Source of the DNA: Nitrospirota bacterium
GTDB taxonomy: Bacteria; Nitrospirota; UBA9217
Assembly: GCA_963741205.1 (NCBI GenBank)
Contig: CAVUHW010000022.1
Span: forward strand, 134,823-198,822
Direction: 5' to 3'
DNA length: 64,000 nt
The notes under the pieces were generated by a model. That model was not told the DNA's origin, did no database searches, and was given only the letters and a program-made list of their open reading frames with translations. Each line of letters opens with the position of its first letter. Position 1 is the stretch's first letter. The position numbers and the translations under genes were made by a program. Of this stretch, positions 581 to 8,609 are shown one piece after another.

Positions 581-1774
581 TCATATTCCCTCTACAGACA
601 ACGGCGCTGCGGTGACGCCGCTGAGCGCCGCACCGTTGAACCCCTTGGCGAAAAAGTTTACCGCGAAGAATTGATTCGTCAGGGGGAAGATCGCCCCGGT
701 GGTCGTTTGAACTGGATCGTGACAAACTCGCCCAGGCCGAAACCCAGGTCGTTCAGCATAGCGATATGCAGCAGGGCAGGGAGTCCTATGGATGCGGGGG
801 TGTACTTAGCCACCACGAGACTATTGTTGCCGACGGCGGCAACGCCGGAGATCGAGACGACCCCCGCCGTAGCTTCCCCCGTGAGTGGGTCGGCGTCAAC
901 GATCACGCCCGCGGGCAACGCTATAGTCATGTCTATCCCGAAAATGACAAACGGTATGCCGACAGTTGCCAGCTTGAGCACTCCGGCGGTGGGCGTGGTA
1001 AGAGGTCCGACCGTCACGCCCGTCACGTTAGAGATGCTGCTGCTGAAATTTGTTATGGCCCCGTTAATCAGGACAGTGGAGTCCGTCGAGAGCTTGCCGC
1101 CGTGTTCCTTCTCGTCACCCATCTTGCCTATCAGCCGCACCAGGGCATCTTCCAGCGATTCTCTCGCACCCTTGTTGTCGTTTATCAGCTGCGAAAAGGT
1201 CCCGCAGGCGAACGCGTACTTTTTCTGATCATCGGTTCCGCCGTTCGGATCTGGCAGGGTTGAGATGATGTCCTTGAGGCCGAAGGTCGAGGCGACGCTC
1301 GCGTTCGCATTATTGATCGAGTCGGCGCTCAGAGGCCCGGCGCCCGTTGCCTTTCTAAAGGCCAGTTCGGTCATCGGGGTCACCGCCGCCGTTATGGCCG
1401 ATCCGGTCTGAACATCGGGGATCATCGTGCGCAGGGGGGCATTGAGGGCAACCGAAGTGCCGCTTACCTCGTCTGTAAACGAGCCACGCGTTACCTCTAC
1501 GAGGACCGGCCCCTGGTACGATCCGAGGTCTATGGAGTAATTGCCGCCGGTATCCGTCTGTGCCTGTCCGATCGGTGTGGACAAGTCCGGAGCGCCAAAA
1601 TTTATGGCGAACACCTTCACCGTTCCTGACTGGATCGGCCCCTTTGATACCATTCCGCTCAGGATTGTCGCCGGTTGAGCCGGAGGAGGCGTATTCCCCC
1701 CTCCGCCGCCGCAGCCGGACAGTGAGATGACCGCGAGAAATAAAATCGGAATGATGACAGAGCGCGATTCTCAT
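581..1774 (-). CDS. Lipoprotein with C-terminal cohesin-like beta domain (frameshifted)
   Basis: ATG 1774 with AGGAG RBS. Stitched N-terminus gives a hydrophobic signal and lipobox LSGC followed by a Gly run. ORF 679..1653 is the body. C-terminal GIDMTIALPAGV...LHIAMLNDLGFGLGEFVTIQF; stitched end LSVEGI-stop at 581. Confidence 0.7.
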
Positions 1775-1776
1775 GG

Positions 1777-4700
1777 TTATCTCCTTTGTGATGATAATAA
1801 GTAGGGGTACAAGTTATCGAACCCCAGAACATTGTCGAACAAGCCGATGGCATTTTTCAGGATCAAGATGGCGTCGGCCACGTCGATCATGTTAGTCCGC
1901 GTAAAGATCGCCGTGAAAAATGTCCGCGAATGCCGGAATATCAAGCCCGACCGCTATGCGCAGGGCCTTGAGGGCGTCCGCAGCGGTCACGCCAAATACA
2001 CCATCGAGTTCGGCGTCGGCTTCGATGACGAATATGTGGAAATCCTCGAAGTTCACGTTTCCGCACAAGTCACGGGCCTCGACCCTGATTATATTGTCTC
2101 CGGGCTTGAGGTCGTCAACCGTGCAGCTCCACGCTGACCCGTTGACCGTTACGGGCGCAGAGTAAGCTGCCCCGTTAACCGTCATCGTCGGCGTTACTCC
2201 GGCCTCAACCGTGCCGGTAATGGCCTCGGGCGCGCCGGTCTTGGCCACCTTTTTAACGTTTGCGTCTACGTTGATAACCGGCTTGATGTCATCGTGGTTA
2301 AAGTCGACCTTCTCTTCGGCCTTATTTCCGGCCGCGTCAATTGCGAAGACCTCGCAATGGTTCAGCTCTTCCACGAGCCCGAGGATCGTGGCGATCCATC
2401 TGGTTTTGTTATCGAAGTGAAGTCATCGAAGAATACGACATCGGCTTTCGCGTAATCGCAAATCACCTTGATTTTCGACCCTATCTCCGCCGTTCCGGCG
2501 ATCTCGATACTGTCCTGCCTGATACAGGCCGCGATAGCGCTGTCGACGTTTATGAAAGGTTCTTTGGTATCGACTATGATGATAGCCGACGCGGTGCTGA
2601 TCGACTCCTTTCGCGTCAGTGGCGTGCACCGTGACCGTATTAGGCCCTTCCCGAGAGCCCGCTGATCCGGGCGCTCCAGCTTGTGCCGGTGACCGTGACG
2701 GGGCCGACCGCGGCAGGAGTGTCAACGGTGACCTTGACCGTAGACCCCGCATCCACCGTGCCGGAAACGGTCTGGTAATTGACATTCGTAGGCGTTCACG
2801 TTAATGGTCAAAACCGGCTGCACGGTGCTGTCGAGAACGATCGTGTCGAAGTAGACTGTTAATTCTCTATTGCCGAGTCTCTGAACCTGACATAGATCCT
2901 TTTCTCCCCATCTCCTGCGGGAAGGGTAATGGGCCTGACTGCGAGCAAACATTTCATAGGGGGAGAAGATTCAATACCATCGGTGCTGAACTTCATGGAG
3001 GTAACCGCGCTCGGACCGGCCGCGCTCAGGTAAAGGGTCACGAAGGGAGAGTTGGTGACGGCGTCATCGGTGTTGATGACGACCGAGCCGACCGGAGCGG
3101 TAATGCCGGCAAGGATGGTCTTGGTTATCGTTTTCGTCACTCCGGCAAGGTCAGTGGCCGTGGCGCTGATCGATATTTTCACCCTGAACGAGCCCGGTAC
3201 ATGGAAGCTCCAGGTGTTGCCGGAACTGCGACGGTCGCCGTACGCCGGCGCTCGCCGTTCACCTGAATCGTCGGCGCAGCCATGATATCCGCCCCAACCT
3301 GCTCCAGCGTTCCGTTGATTGTCTGGCTGGTCTGTTGGTCGGGGAGACGACAAACATCGTGAAGGCCGGCAGGATATCCGCCTGGCCGTTGAATCCCGTG
3401 GCAAGAAGCCTGGTCATGGGCAACTCCGGGTCGCCTTGGGGAAGCAGAAGCTCCGGATGGTCGAAGGGCGCCGATTCAAGCGCACGCGGGGATCGGTGAG
3501 CGCCTTCAGGAATTCCACCACTTCGGCCCTGTGATTGTTCGCACTGCCGAGCGTGCCGATCGGCGACATTTCCTCGTCCATTTCCGGGTTCGCGAAGTTC
3601 CCGCCCCGGGCGTAAAATTCCACCACTTCTTCGAGGGTGAACATGCTGCCGTTGTGCATATAGGGAGGCGTCAGTTCCACGTTGCGGAGCGACGGGATCT
3701 TGAGAGGCGCCGTCAACGGCAACAGGTGACGACGCAGTCAGCGCCGTTCAGGAGTGGGAAGGTCGCGAAGGGTATCGACGACGAATTCGTGCCTTGGAGA
3801 TCGCTTGGGCCGCGAAGGAGAGCGGGAAATTGATCACGCCGCCCCTTTGCCTATGTCATCTGCAGTAGGCCTGACCCGATGTTGTTGAAGCCGATGTCGC
3901 TTACGAGAGCCGTTCACATCGGTCGCGCCCGTTTCGATCAGGCTGCCGGTAGCGGCAATGGTGGCCTCAGCATTGGAGACCGACGCGCCTGTGAGCTCAG
4001 AGCCGCTGTGGCACTTGGCGCATTGCGAGGAAAAGATTCCGAAACCGTTCTGAGCATTGGCGCTCATAGCGGTCGAGATTATGCCTTTCGACACATCGTC
4101 GAGATATTGGTCGAAGGGGGTCTGGTCGGAGACCAGGGTCGCTTCGTAGAGCTGAATAGCGAGCCCCCAGAAGAGCGAGAAGTTGGCCTCCATCTGGGTG
4201 AATGTCAGTCGGTGTACCCCGTGGTCAAGATGCGTCGTGGTCAGGGTCGTGGACGTGAGATTGCTCACAAAGGCGTCCTTGATCATCTGATCGTAAGTGG
4301 TATTAAGCCCCTTGGCGCCGCCGAGCGTCCCGTCGGCTTGAGCACGGCCCGGGAGAGGGGCCGAGCACGCTGTCCGTCGGGTGGACGGTCTGCTGCCCGA
4401 GCGGAGTGAGGCTGAGCATTTTCCTGCCCAGTTCCGGGAAGGTGCGGCCCTTGAACGACATCTCAACGTCGCTCAAGGGCGGTCCCACCGCCTGGGAGGC
4501 GAGGCTCGCATTCGGGATGGAGACCGTCTGCTGCGACCAGAGTGCCGCTGTTGTTGATCCAGATTCCGGCATTCACGTCGAGCGGGCCGATCGGGCTCGA
4601 CCCGTTGAAGATGTTGTTTGCCCGGCCGTCCCAGAAGTTGGCGTAATTGAACACCGCGTTGACCGCCGGCGGGGTATTGCGCCCCGTGACCTGACGGTGG

Positions 4701-6984: not shown

Positions 6985-8537
6985 TTACTGTACGCTCGGA
7001 TCGAGCGGAGCAGCGTCGATGCTGTCGATCACGCCGTCGCCGTCGGTGTCCGGGTTGTTGGGGTCCGTATGGAAGACGTATATTTCATCGAAGTCCGTCA
7101 AGCCGTCCCCGTCCGAGTCCGCCGAGAGATCGCTCGTGCCGAGCAGGCGCTCCTGCCGCGAGAATATGCCGTCGCCGTCCTTGTCTTCCATGTACACGAG
7201 ATAGAGCGTATCTCCGCCCCTGAGCAGGATGTTCTCGAAATCAAAATCCCCTGCACGCGGATCGAACCTGGTGACCACGTTTCCCAGGCCGTTGTTCCGG
7301 ATCTGGACGACCAGCCAGAAGGCGTTTTTTGACGGGTTCGCCCGGACATTGGGGTCGTTCCTTAGGCCGATCAGCGAGGCCGGACATCTGCCGTCTCGAA
7401 GGGGATACGGAGGATGTCCCGAAGCGCCCTGCCGGCCGTGACGCCGGGATTGAGCGGATCGGCGTTGGCCGCGACGAAGTACTGCTCGGGAAGGCGTTGC
7501 CCGGCATAGTCGATGACGATCAGGGCGTCCCTTGCCACGATATCCGTGAAATTGAAGCCGAAGGGCATGCCGTCGACATCGGAGAGTTCGAAGGTCGCTA
7601 TTGTGATGATGAGCTCTCCGGGGTTTCTCAGCACCAGTTTTGCGACCTCAAGGTCAAGGATATCGTTGACGAAATTGACGGCCGGAAAGACCCCGCCCGG
7701 CGGGATGGTGAATGACGGGAAACCCGTGTAATTGTGCGACGTGTCGTAGACCAGGTTGCCGACCGGGAAAGAACTTGCCCGGATTGGAGGGGTCCGGGAT
7801 GATGGCGGAAAGGACAATGTGGTCGACCCGGAAGGGGATGTTGCCCAGGTTTGCAATGTCCACTACAACCCTCAGGTCGCCGCCGCTCGCGGCGATCTCC
7901 CTGCGTCTCGGAAAACGCCTCGATCTCGGTGATCGCCTGAACATTTTCCACGGTCTGGGTCTTCGAGAAGCTGAAGGACACATCCTGGGTCATGGTCTTG
8001 CTGATGTCATAGGAGATCGTGGTATCCCCCGGCACGCCGTTCGTGAACGTGGTGGCGTTGGGAAGCGGTCTGCGACAGCTCGATCGTGTCCACGACGCTG
8101 TCCGTGACCGCTCTGGTCAACGGCCACCGCGTTCTCCACGGTCCGGTCCACCTCGAAGACCTTCGATACCGCGAGGGTGTCGGTCAGGATCAGATGCATG
8201 ACCGGCGGGCTTCTGAGGATGACGCCCAGCCGGGGGATGTCGGCGACGAGCGGATTGAACAATACGGGATCGATCTCCGGGTCGAAGCCGAGCTCATGAT
8301 CTCCGTCTGCGTCGCTGATGCCGTCGCCGTCCGTGTCCGCGAGCACGGGGGATGTCCCATCCAGCGAGCTCCAGATCGTCAACGAGACCGTCACCGTCCG
8401 TGTCCGCAGTACCCGACGACGTGTCCGCGGATTTCCTCGCGAAGGGATTGGAGATAGCCGTGTTGGAGCAGGCCGAGAAGAGGATTAGACTCGGACAGCA
8501 TGAATAACAACAGAATGGCAGACAATGGTTTTTTCAT
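6985..8537 (-). CDS. Lipoprotein, protective-antigen/binary toxin B-like (paralog 1, frameshifted)
   Basis: MKKPLS...LFSAC lipobox. Colinear with 5398..6974 (NPLVADIP, VDIANLGNIPF, ALIVIDY..PEQYFVAANADPLNPGVTAGRALRDIL, identical YLVYMEDKDGDGIFSRQERLLGTSDL). Confidence 0.75.
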
Positions 8538-8592
8538 AATTCTTCCCCTTGAGTGAGATTGTTTATGAGTGACATGTGACGATCATACACTA

Positions 8593-8609
8593 AGCAATAG
8601 CTATGCCAG
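8593..8609 (-). promoter_or_regulatory. Sigma54 (RpoN) -24/-12 promoter
   Basis: Minus strand CTGGCATAGCTATTGCT has GG-N10-GC spacing, about 55 bp upstream of ATG 8537, with an AT-rich upstream region. Confidence 0.8.

What the first reader, a model, noticed from the sequence alone, without database searches (positions are those of the whole stretch)
581..8609. Candidate new surface-export and display system: sigma54 operon of pore-like pair, dockerin-tagged peroxidase and cohesin-like anchor
Seen: four co-directional exported proteins with gaps of about 10, 140 and 2 bp behind one sigma54 promoter, bounded by AT-rich DNA on both sides. Inference: the PA-like lipoproteins could act as an outer-membrane channel, analogous to the lipoprotein channel CsgG, exporting or positioning a heme enzyme that then docks on the lipoprotein. 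I know of no described system with this composition. The functional link is a hypothesis from synteny only.
Basis: inference. Interest (0 to 1): 0.85.

Follow-up and report, generated by a model that had tools for sequence, protein, structure and literature searches.

The report
Two neighbouring surface-protein modules, frames broken
The four genes are there, but as assembled they are riddled with single-base frame breaks, and they look like two separate units: a widespread pair that tethers a secreted enzyme to a cell-surface lipoprotein, next to two pore-former-like lipoproteins that do not normally travel with it.

Summary
None is an intact reading frame. About 25-34 single-base frame changes interrupt them, with at most one in-frame stop. 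The same assembly splits rpoC and several ordinary genes, so assembly error is the likelier cause.

The domain calls hold at fold level, tested on intact relatives:
- g1/g2 relatives model as anthrax PA63 / iota Ib-like (Z 16).
- g3 is a di-haem MauG/CCP-family enzyme ending in a dockerin-like module.
- g4 relatives are lipoproteins with a PgcA-like first domain (Z 12.7) and a cohesin fold (Z 8-9.9).

The "one system" reading is not supported:
- 32 of 35 g4-type genes in other genomes directly follow a dockerin-tagged gene, with varied cargo.
- 0 of those 35 loci have a PA-like core.
- Of 18 other PA-core loci, only one, a close relative, has this cohesin type.

Best reading: a conserved dockerin-cargo/cohesin-lipoprotein display pair beside an independent tandem of PA63-like lipoproteins. 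A complex prediction on a Geobacter counterpart supports docking (0.71; best control 0.05).

The parts
8593..8608 (-). sigma54-type -24/-12 element, TGGCAT-N5-TTGCT, 55 nt upstream of the g1 ATG
   Evidence: It is the only match in the window, with 0.10 expected. A GG-N10-GC element is kept upstream of the g1 orthologs in L040, L041 and L042. No such element lies in the g2-g3 gap.
6985..8537 (-). g1: PA63-like lipoprotein 1. It has a lipobox, TSP3 Ca-binding repeats, a PA domain 1'-2-3-like core and C-terminal TSP3 repeats. Seven single-base indels break it.
   Evidence: Fragments are. The intact ortholog P0148 (518 aa) is 78-87% identical to most fragments and 63% to one.
5398..6974 (-). g2: PA63-like lipoprotein 2, a paralog of g1. 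It starts MKKRSS...LLSAC. About 3-7 frame changes break it.
   Evidence: The intact ortholog in L040 (2772-4304, 510 aa) is.
1777..5257 (-). g3: secreted di-haem MauG/CCP-family enzyme with two CxxCH motifs, an Ig-like (Big_13/Glucodextran_B) domain and a C-terminal dockerin-like module. About 13-18 frame changes break it, including one right after the ATG and one inside the dockerin.
   Evidence: Intact relatives L036:1520-4588, L036:4719-7106 and L119:5209-7878 are. A partial hit of my dockerin profile falls at window 1901-2044.
581..1774 (-). g4: lipoprotein with a PgcA-non-haem-domain-like N-terminal domain (window 1015-1770) and a cohesin-fold C-terminal domain (window 584-1014). There are two frame breaks: one after the ATG and one near the 3' end.
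   Evidence: The model of ortholog P0002 (72% identical to g4 over 364 aligned residues) is. VIA-align gives Z 12.7 to 9i0d and Z 8-9.9 to about 45 cohesin entries.
5258..5397 (-). 140-nt gap between module A (g1, g2) and module B (g3, g4). A GGAGG lies before the g3 ATG.
   Evidence: The sequence is. No sigma54-type element was found there.

Best explanation
The locus holds two separate units that happen to be neighbours and may be co-transcribed from one sigma54 promoter.

Module B (g3 + g4) is a cohesin-dockerin surface-display pair.
- A Sec-exported di-haem MauG/CCP-family enzyme carries an Ig-like 'X' domain and a C-terminal dockerin-like module.
- The gene 2 nt downstream encodes a lipid-anchored protein. 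Its first domain resembles the cofactor-free first domain of the Geobacter surface cytochrome PgcA. Its last domain has the cohesin fold.
- The dockerin docks on that cohesin, so the enzyme is held at the cell surface (inferred).
- The same two-gene unit, with many different cargoes, is common in Geobacteraceae and recurs three times in this genome.

Module A (g1 + g2) is a tandem of lipoproteins with the fold of anthrax PA63 / iota Ib domains 1'-3.
- They lack the PA14/PA20 propeptide.
- They contain a long Ser/Thr-rich, low-confidence segment. I take this to be the counterpart of the membrane-insertion loop of such toxins; its placement was not checked residue by residue.
- They most likely oligomerise into a beta-barrel pore of their own (inferred).
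- They belong to a large, unnamed family that normally occurs without dockerin or cohesin genes.

The roughly 30 single-base frame breaks are most likely errors of this assembly, not biology.
For: Pair conservation:
- 32 of 35 g4-type genes in genome-contig loci have a dockerin-like module ending within 450 nt upstream. Most gaps are 21-88 nt. One of the 3 exceptions lies at a contig edge.
- Cargoes differ: di-haem peroxidase (L119), multicopper oxidase (L149), an NHL propeller, and Ig/MBG/CarboxypepD_reg repeat proteins (17 cargo proteins scanned).
- L119, a Geobacter MAG, has the same architecture as g3-g4.
- The window's own genome has such pairs at C18, C22 and C34.

Fold and docking:
- Cohesin fold: Z 8-9.9, 103-129 residues aligned, about 45 cohesin entries. 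PgcA first domain: Z 12.7, rmsd 3.3, 161 residues aligned.
- The dockerin alignment shows two segments, each a loop plus a helix.
- Complex of the L119 cohesin and L119 dockerin: score 0.71, best of 3 controls 0.05. That mark was reached by 116 of 157 solved complexes and 2 of 215 mismatched pairs. Runs agree in at least 98% of contacts, and the partner's pLDDT is at least 83. Solved cohesin-dockerin complexes exist, so this pass may reflect likeness to them.

PA-like genes:
- The model of g1 ortholog P0148 has pLDDT 83.9.
- Foldseek gives E 7e-12 to the PA prepore, with 115 hits at E <= 0.001.
- VIA-align gives Z 16.6 to iota Ib and Z 16.3 to PA63 residues 174-608.
- The family has 2151 representatives at E <= 0.001 and 299 at E <= 1e-30.

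Independence of the two modules:
- 0 of 35 pair loci have a PA core.
- 1 of 13 metagenome and 0 of 5 genome PA-core loci have the cohesin type.

Assembly error:
- rpoC is split into 3 pieces in this genome.
- An M3 peptidase, an acetyl-CoA hydrolase and an acyl-CoA synthetase in the window are also split.
- g1 has 6 insertions and 1 deletion of one base, and no internal stop in 507 codons. Its dN/dS is 0.18-0.22, against 0.115-0.153 among intact orthologs.
- The path analysis reads through 0-1 stops.
Against: - In the window, and in the one related contig with enough flank (L040), the PA-like pair does sit directly beside a cohesin-lipoprotein gene.
- There is no sigma54 element in the g2-g3 gap, whereas other peroxidase loci (L010, L036) have their own. 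Co-transcription and a lineage-specific link therefore cannot be excluded.
- My dockerin and cohesin profiles detect only this subtype, and the dockerin profile was built from the very loci it was counted on. One search shows the tails directly.
- Cohesin and PA kinship rest on predicted folds of relatives, not on the window's own broken products. Pfam does not recognise the g4-type cohesin or the PA core.
- Frame breaks are roughly 15 times denser here than in rpoBC, which assembly error alone does not explain. The path method also shifts in intact ORFs of this genome.
- rpoB is intact.
Confidence: 0.6

Rival explanations
1. One reading: the four genes form one export-and-display system. The PA-like lipoproteins form an outer-membrane channel that exports or positions the haem enzyme, which then docks on the cohesin lipoprotein.
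For: - The genes are adjacent and co-directional behind a single sigma54-type element, with none in the g2-g3 gap.
- In L040 the PA-like pair is again followed, 41 nt later, by a cohesin-bearing lipoprotein gene.
- The PA-like fold is that of a protein-translocating pore.
Against: - 0 of 35 dockerin/cohesin-lipoprotein loci elsewhere have a PA-like core.
- Two further peroxidase-dockerin/cohesin pairs in the same genome lack it.
- 17 of 18 other PA-core loci lack this cohesin type, and all 18 lack the dockerin type.
- L040 is a close relative (79% nt identity), so it is not independent evidence.
- PA-type channels translocate unfolded chains (general knowledge). A c-type di-haem enzyme with covalently bound haem is a poor candidate (inference).
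Confidence: 0.1
2. The cluster is a set of decaying pseudogenes: the frame breaks are real mutations and nothing here is made.
For: - About 25-34 frame changes fall in 8 kb, far denser than in rpoBC of the same assembly, where 2 or more breaks are seen in rpoC and none in rpoB.
- The bin is in the lowest 1% for long ORFs.
- The paralogous peroxidase loci C18 and C34 are broken too, with 11-12 and 5-7 path shifts.
- dN/dS of g1 is slightly raised: 0.18-0.22 against 0.115-0.153.
Against: - g1 has no internal stop codon in 507 codons. The other genes show 0-1 in the path analysis.
- All 7 frame-breaking indels in g1 are single bases, 6 of them insertions. I recall that natural decay in bacteria favours deletions and also produces nonsense codons; this was not tested here.
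- An essential gene (rpoC) and ordinary metabolic genes are split in the same assembly.
- Selection on g1 is still clearly purifying.
Confidence: 0.2
3. The PA63-like pair is the binding/translocation part of a binary-toxin-like weapon against grazers or neighbouring cells. It lies here by chance or as part of a surface-protein island.
For: - The fold matches binary-toxin B components over 313-342 residues.
- There is a Ser/Thr-rich low-confidence segment at residues 164-180, within a longer Ser/Thr-rich stretch of P0148.
- Profile positions 111-207 give weak profile-to-sequence matches to aerolysin-type pore formers and to C2-II.
- Relatives carry varied C-terminal binding-type domains: Laminin_G_3, FG-GAP, PKD.
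Against: - No enzymatic partner with a known toxin domain was seen next to the 5 genome loci scanned.
- A lipid anchor is unusual for a released toxin.
- No target and no activity is known.
Confidence: 0.25

Closest known systems
Cohesin-dockerin anchoring, type II X-Doc style (Clostridium thermocellum SdbA/ScaA; non-cellulosomal cohesins such as Archaeoglobus fulgidus 2xdh)
   Same: - The anchor has a cohesin beta-sandwich (Z 8-9.9).
- The cargo ends in a duplicated loop-helix module, preceded in most cargoes by an Ig-like domain.
- The predicted interface uses both dockerin helices.
- Its role is to tether a secreted protein to the cell surface.
   Different: - The anchor is a lipoprotein of a likely diderm bacterium. 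It is not an SLH- or sortase-anchored scaffoldin.
- There is one cohesin per anchor and one cognate gene pair, with no scaffoldin.
- Cargoes are redox enzymes and repeat proteins, not glycoside hydrolases.
- Pfam Cohesin does not detect the module. The second dockerin loop is extended (GDVAPL..G.P.PDG).
PgcA of Geobacter sulfurreducens (lipid-anchored extracellular trihaem cytochrome); structure of its non-haem domain, 9i0d/9i0e
   Same: - Both have an N-terminal lipid anchor followed by a cofactor-free first domain of the same fold (Z 12.7, 161 residues aligned, 18% identity).
- PgcA is described as lipid-anchored and carried across the outer membrane (PMC11520253, passages read).
- g4-type genes are commonest in Geobacteraceae.
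   Different: PgcA continues with three monohaem domains on (PT)n linkers. g4-type proteins continue with a cohesin and recruit a separate protein instead.
Binary-toxin B components: anthrax protective antigen PA63, iota Ib, CDTb, C2-II, Vip1
   Same: - The fold of domains 1' (Ca-binding), 2 and 3 is shared (Foldseek E 7e-12; Z 16.3-16.6).
- There is a long Ser/Thr-rich, poorly ordered segment.
   Different: - Identity is 15-17%, and there is no Pfam Binary_toxB_2/3 match.
- They have a lipoprotein signal, no PA14/PA20 propeptide, and TSP3 repeats at both ends.
- They occur as a tandem of two paralogs, with no known A component or receptor.
- The host is an environmental bacterium.
bCCP/MauG/MbnH di-haem enzymes
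   Same: - g3 has two CxxCH motifs.
- Intact relatives hit CCP_MauG over threshold.
- MbnH and MauG NCBIfam models hit well below their cut-offs.
   Different: The protein is about 1100 aa with large insertions, an Ig-like domain and a dockerin. The substrate is unknown.

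Membership tests
Cohesin (Pfam PF00963) | Beta-sandwich cohesin fold | tested here: met
   In the model of P0002 (72% identical to g4 over 364 aligned residues), residues 261-392 align to about 45 cohesin entries at Z 8-9.9, rmsd 2.4-3.6, with 103-129 residues aligned. This was tested on the ortholog, because the window's own domain is frame-broken.
Cohesin (Pfam PF00963) | Sequence match to the family profile | tested here: not met
   Pfam gave no Cohesin hit for g4, its paralogs or the L119 domain, even at E <= 10. 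A different protein of the same gene neighbourhood in G007 (L036:11884-13176) does pass, at 26.1 bits against a cut-off of 24.1.
Cohesin (Pfam PF00963) | Binds a dockerin | tested here: inconclusive
   This rests on prediction only. The score was 0.71 against a best control of 0.05; that mark was reached by 116 of 157 solved complexes and 2 of 215 mismatched pairs. It may reflect likeness to solved complexes. It was run on the L119 pair, not on the window's own.
Dockerin (Pfam PF00404) | Two tandem segments, each a Ca-binding-type loop followed by a helix | tested here: met
   Alignment A4 of 34 tails gives the consensus GDLxxDGxVDxxDALxAL..AVGL ... GDVAPLVNGxPxPDGxIDxxDALxIL.K.VG. In g3 both segments are visible but lie in different frames.
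Dockerin (Pfam PF00404) | Sequence match to the family profile | tested here: inconclusive
   One of 4 tails scanned passes the cut-off (L129, 24.3 bits against 22.9). One is below it (L124, 18.4 bits). Two have no hit. No fragment of g3 had a hit.
Binary toxin B / protective antigen (PF03495, PF17475, PF17476) | Fold of PA63 domains 1', 2 and 3 | tested here: met
   Foldseek gives E 7e-12, with 115 hits at E <= 0.001. VIA-align gives Z 16.6 to iota Ib and Z 16.3 to PA residues 174-608, with 313-342 residues aligned. This was tested on ortholog P0148.
Binary toxin B / protective antigen (PF03495, PF17475, PF17476) | Sequence match to the family profiles | tested here: not met
   No fragment of g1 or g2 has a hit. 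One of 5 intact relatives has a sub-threshold Binary_toxB hit, at 22.9 bits against 25. The profile searched against PDB sequences gives C2-II at 5e-5 and PA63 at 0.016, mostly from the Ca-binding stretch.
Binary toxin B / protective antigen (PF03495, PF17475, PF17476) | N-terminal PA14/PA20 propeptide removed by proteolysis | tested here: not met
   Alignments to PA begin at PA residue 173-175. No PA14 hit was found. A lipoprotein signal sits at the N-terminus instead.
Binary toxin B / protective antigen (PF03495, PF17475, PF17476) | Oligomeric pore with a phenylalanine clamp | not tested
   Model coordinates could not be read residue by residue here. Oligomerisation needs experiment.
bCCP/MauG di-haem peroxidase (PF03150) | Two c-type haem motifs and the family profile | tested here: met
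   CATCH and CAKCH motifs are present in g3 fragments. The fragments score just below the cut-off. Intact relatives score 62-78 bits against a cut-off of 25.6.
sigma54-dependent promoter | GG at -24 and GC at -12 with fixed spacing, upstream of the first gene | tested here: met
   There is 1 match in the window, with 0.10 expected. The element is kept in 3 of 3 orthologous upstream regions.
sigma54-dependent promoter | Cognate enhancer-binding activator nearby | tested here: inconclusive
   None was seen among the 28 ORFs I sent to Pfam, out of the 65 references listed (64 ORFs of 110 aa or more between 8600 and 26000, plus window 1-423). The rest of the genome was not searched.

The most novel reading that the evidence does not exclude
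In this lineage the PA63-like lipoprotein pair is not a toxin. It is a self-directed outer-membrane beta-barrel conduit, co-expressed from one sigma54 promoter with a cohesin-dockerin display pair, so that a pore-former fold has been recruited for surface biogenesis in a diderm bacterium. The adjacency in the window and in L040, and the lack of a separate promoter before g3, are not explained away by my data.
Probability: 0.07. Interest if true: 0.85.

Novelty: new variant of a known kind. Interest (0 to 1): 0.45.

Why it matters
Two things here are worth having even though the proposed four-gene system does not hold.

First, the gene pair.
- A dockerin-tagged secreted protein followed by a lipoprotein with a PgcA-like domain and an unannotated cohesin is a simple, testable rule for how Geobacteraceae and this lineage fix enzymes on their surface. 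The cargoes include a di-haem peroxidase and a multicopper oxidase.
- Cultured Geomonas, Geomesophilobacter and Geotalea genomes carry 1-15 matches of this cohesin type, so genetics is possible.
- My searches found no paper that describes this pair. Two papers mention dockerin domains in passing: one for Geobacter-matched genes (PMC6199725, passages read) and one for sulfate-reducing bacteria partnered with methane-oxidising archaea (PMC10553843, passages read).

Second, the PA63-like lipoproteins.
- They form a large unnamed family, with 299 representatives at E <= 1e-30.
- They widen the known range of this pore-former fold far beyond Gram-positive binary toxins.
- My searches found nothing in print on it.

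The finding is also a caution: a reader can silently read through dozens of frame breaks.

Tried and rejected
- Another genetic code: rejected. The breaks are frame changes, and TAA and TAG occur besides TGA in every minus frame.
- Programmed frameshifting: rejected. There are about 30 sites of both signs with no common motif.
- Sequencing runs for the locus: none was listed and no RNA holder was listed.
- A proxy count of overlapping same-strand ORFs as a genome-wide frameshift measure was too noisy to use.
- The codon-path method gives 0-6 false or compensated shifts in open ORFs of this genome and 0-1 in relatives. Its counts for g2 and g3 are therefore rough.
- Peer et al. 2009 (cited in PMC9012536) is not held, so I could not check whether it lists such pairs.
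- The search of earlier findings returned nothing.
- NCBIfam names none of g1, g2 or g4 relatives. The only hits are from TSP3 repeats.
- G007, the same-genus genome with a 57%-identical g4 homolog, has that gene without an adjacent peroxidase. Its peroxidase-dockerin genes sit in another contig with other cohesin lipoproteins.
- The phenylalanine clamp could not be checked, because no coordinates were available.

Full report
**1. What is at the coordinates**

Under table 11 the plus strand of 581-8609 holds nothing. The minus strand holds only fragments, the longest 363 aa stop-to-stop. The fragment translations are clearly protein-like.
- Two sets have TSP3 Ca-binding repeats and lipoprotein signals.
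- One set has two haem motifs (CATCH, CAKCH) and CCP_MauG/RoxA-like matches just under threshold.
- One fragment has an Ig-like domain followed by a dockerin-like stretch.
- One 363-aa lipoprotein has no Pfam match.

I read the junctions directly and mapped intact orthologs onto the DNA. This gives four minus-strand genes:
- g1: 8537->6985.
- g2: 6974->5398.
- g3: 5257->1777.
- g4: 1774->581.

The flanks are AT-rich.

TGGCATAGCTATTGCT at 8593-8608 (-) is the only match to the sigma54 consensus in the window; 0.10 are expected, and 9 of 100 shuffles have at least one. A GG-N10-GC element lies 91-93 nt upstream of the g1 orthologs in all three related contigs.

**2. The frames are broken**

- g1: aligned as DNA to three intact orthologs (about 79% nt identity), it has 7 private single-base indels (6 insertions, 1 deletion) and one in-frame 18-nt deletion. 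The orthologs show only one private 3-nt indel among themselves.
- g2 and g3: a codon-usage path finds 3-7 changes in g2 and 13-18 in g3, and reads through 0-1 stops.
- g3 and g4: both shift right after their ATG. g4 shifts again near its 3' end. g3 shifts inside its dockerin.
- The 8-kb bin is in the lowest 1% of 988 bins for long ORFs.

I think assembly error is the likelier cause (about 0.75), for these reasons:
- rpoC is in three pieces in this assembly, while rpoB is whole.
- An M3 peptidase, an acetyl-CoA hydrolase and an acyl-CoA synthetase in the window are split the same way.
- The paralogous peroxidase loci on C18 and C34 are broken too. Genes of relatives give 0-1 path shifts.
- g1 has no internal stop in 507 codons. 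Its dN/dS is 0.18-0.22, against 0.115-0.153 among intact orthologs.

Against this reading, the breaks are much denser here than in rpoBC, and the path method is rough. No sequencing run was listed, so reads could not settle it.

**3. What the four genes are, tested on intact relatives**

*g4*
- It has 78 homologs of about 400 aa; every source name given is 'hypothetical protein', and none has a Pfam domain.
- I modelled P0002, which is 72% identical to g4 over 364 aligned residues. The model has pLDDT 88.4.
- Residues 37-246 match the non-haem domain of Geobacter PgcA (9i0d; Z 12.7, rmsd 3.3, 161 aligned).
- Residues 261-392 match about 45 cohesin entries at Z 8-9.9.
- PgcA is described as lipid-anchored, with a cofactor-free first domain, and as carried across the outer membrane (PMC11520253, passages read).

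*g3*
- Intact relatives (L036, two genes; L119) are CCP_MauG di-haem proteins with a Big_13/Glucodextran_B Ig-like domain. MbnH and MauG NCBIfam models hit far below their cut-offs.
- They end in a conserved 70-residue module with two loop-helix segments.
- One of 4 such tails scanned passes Pfam Dockerin_1.

*g1 and g2*
- P0148 (518 aa) is an intact ortholog of g1, 78-87% identical to most fragments and 63% to one.
- Its core family has 2151 representatives at E <= 0.001 and 299 at E <= 1e-30.
- The model (pLDDT 83.9) matches the anthrax PA prepore, CDTb, C2-II and Vip1 by Foldseek (best E 7e-12; 115 hits at E <= 0.001).
- VIA-align gives Z 16.6 to iota Ib and Z 16.3 to PA63 residues 174-608, with 313-342 aligned and 15-17% identity.
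- By sequence the link is weak.
- There is no PA14/PA20 part. A Ser/Thr-rich segment is modelled with low confidence at residues 164-180. I take it to be the counterpart of the membrane-insertion loop, but did not check this residue by residue.

**4. Do the four belong together?**

*The g3-g4 type of pair is strongly conserved.*
- In genome-contig loci, mostly Geobacteraceae, 32 of 35 g4-type genes have a dockerin-like module ending within 450 nt upstream, usually 21-88 nt. One exception is at a contig edge.
- The dockerin profile was built from tails of these same loci. One search prints the tails themselves.
- Cargoes vary: a di-haem peroxidase of the same architecture as g3 (L119), a multicopper oxidase (L149), an NHL propeller and repeat proteins (17 scanned).
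- The window's genome has three such pairs, at C18, C22 and C34.
- G007 has a cluster with several dockerin proteins and cohesin lipoproteins.
- Five cultured Geobacteraceae genomes hold 1, 3, 7, 8 and 15 matches of this cohesin type.
- A complex prediction for the L119 cohesin domain and the L119 dockerin scored 0.71 against a best control of 0.05. That mark was reached by 116 of 157 solved complexes and 2 of 215 mismatched pairs. Runs agree in at least 98% of contacts, and the partner's pLDDT is at least 83. Contacts fall on both dockerin helices. Solved cohesin-dockerin complexes exist, so this shows likeness, not binding.

*The PA-like genes do not travel with the pair.*
- 0 of the 35 pair loci hold a PA-like core.
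- The five PA-like genes found in 400 other genomes of the phylum sit among unrelated genes. One has an ordinary 352-aa CCP two genes away.
- Of 13 metagenome loci with a PA core, only L040 has the cohesin type, and none has the dockerin type.
- In L040 the intact g1 and g2 orthologs are followed, 41 nt on, by a lipoprotein with a cohesin-like domain and Ig-like domains. L040 is a close relative of the window. L041 and L042 end inside g2.

So the tandem PA pair is conserved, and its adjacency to a cohesin gene is seen only in this lineage. Other peroxidase loci (L010, L036) have their own sigma54-type element, but the g2-g3 gap has none. Co-transcription in the window therefore remains possible.

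**5. Verdict**

- The domain inferences are largely right.
- The docking idea is well supported as a general two-gene display module.
- I file the locus as two modules: a new variant of cohesin-dockerin anchoring (lipoprotein anchor with a PgcA-like domain, one cognate pair per cargo) and members of a large unnamed PA63-like lipoprotein family.
- My literature searches found no description of either. Dockerin or cohesin domains are mentioned only in passing, for Geobacter-matched genes in PMC6199725 and for sulfate-reducing partners of methane-oxidising archaea in PMC10553843 (passages read).

Noticed in passing
G000:C13:85702-89702 (L038): rpoC of the window's genome is split into three pieces in different frames, while the neighbouring rpoB is whole. 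This shows that the assembly carries indel errors in essential genes.
   Followed up: partly
window 10395-12147 (+), 14151-15481 (-), 15981-17796 (+): An M3 peptidase, an acetyl-CoA hydrolase/transferase and an ADP-forming acyl-CoA synthetase-like gene each appear as two overlapping ORFs in different frames. These are further likely frameshifts in ordinary genes.
   Followed up: no
window 9230-9772 (+): A Redoxin/AhpC-TSA peroxiredoxin gene lies divergently upstream of the sigma54 element, next to the peroxidase-bearing cluster. It may share an oxidative-stress theme. This was not examined.
   Followed up: no
L036 (G007:C203) 1-13179: A same-genus genome has an intact island. It holds two tandem peroxidase-dockerin genes, a 165-aa cohesin-like lipoprotein, an 876-aa dockerin protein, a 288-aa lipoprotein, and a 431-aa protein that passes Pfam Cohesin and also has a dockerin-like end, so it may act as an adaptor.
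   Followed up: partly
L149 3498-9215 (Geomonas silvestris contig): A 1472-aa multicopper oxidase with Fn3-associated domains ends in the dockerin-like module. A lipoprotein gene with the PgcA-like domain follows it directly; my cohesin profile gave no hit on this one. This is a second redox enzyme with this gene arrangement, in a cultured species.
   Followed up: partly
L010 (G000:C18) 9772-10994: A second g4-type gene downstream of the C18 pair is split into a 214-aa N-terminal part and a 156-aa cohesin part. This is probably another frame break of the assembly.
   Followed up: no
L025-L029 and P0079-P0228: Relatives of the PA63-like core carry varied C-terminal domains (Laminin_G_3, FG-GAP, PKD) and range from about 450 to 2000 aa. 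This looks like a swap of binding modules on a common pore-former core.
   Followed up: partly
L010 about 214 nt and L036 about 128 nt upstream of the peroxidase genes: Sigma54-type TGGCA-N6-TTGC elements also precede peroxidase-dockerin genes at other loci. The display pairs may therefore be sigma54-controlled in general in this genus.
   Followed up: no
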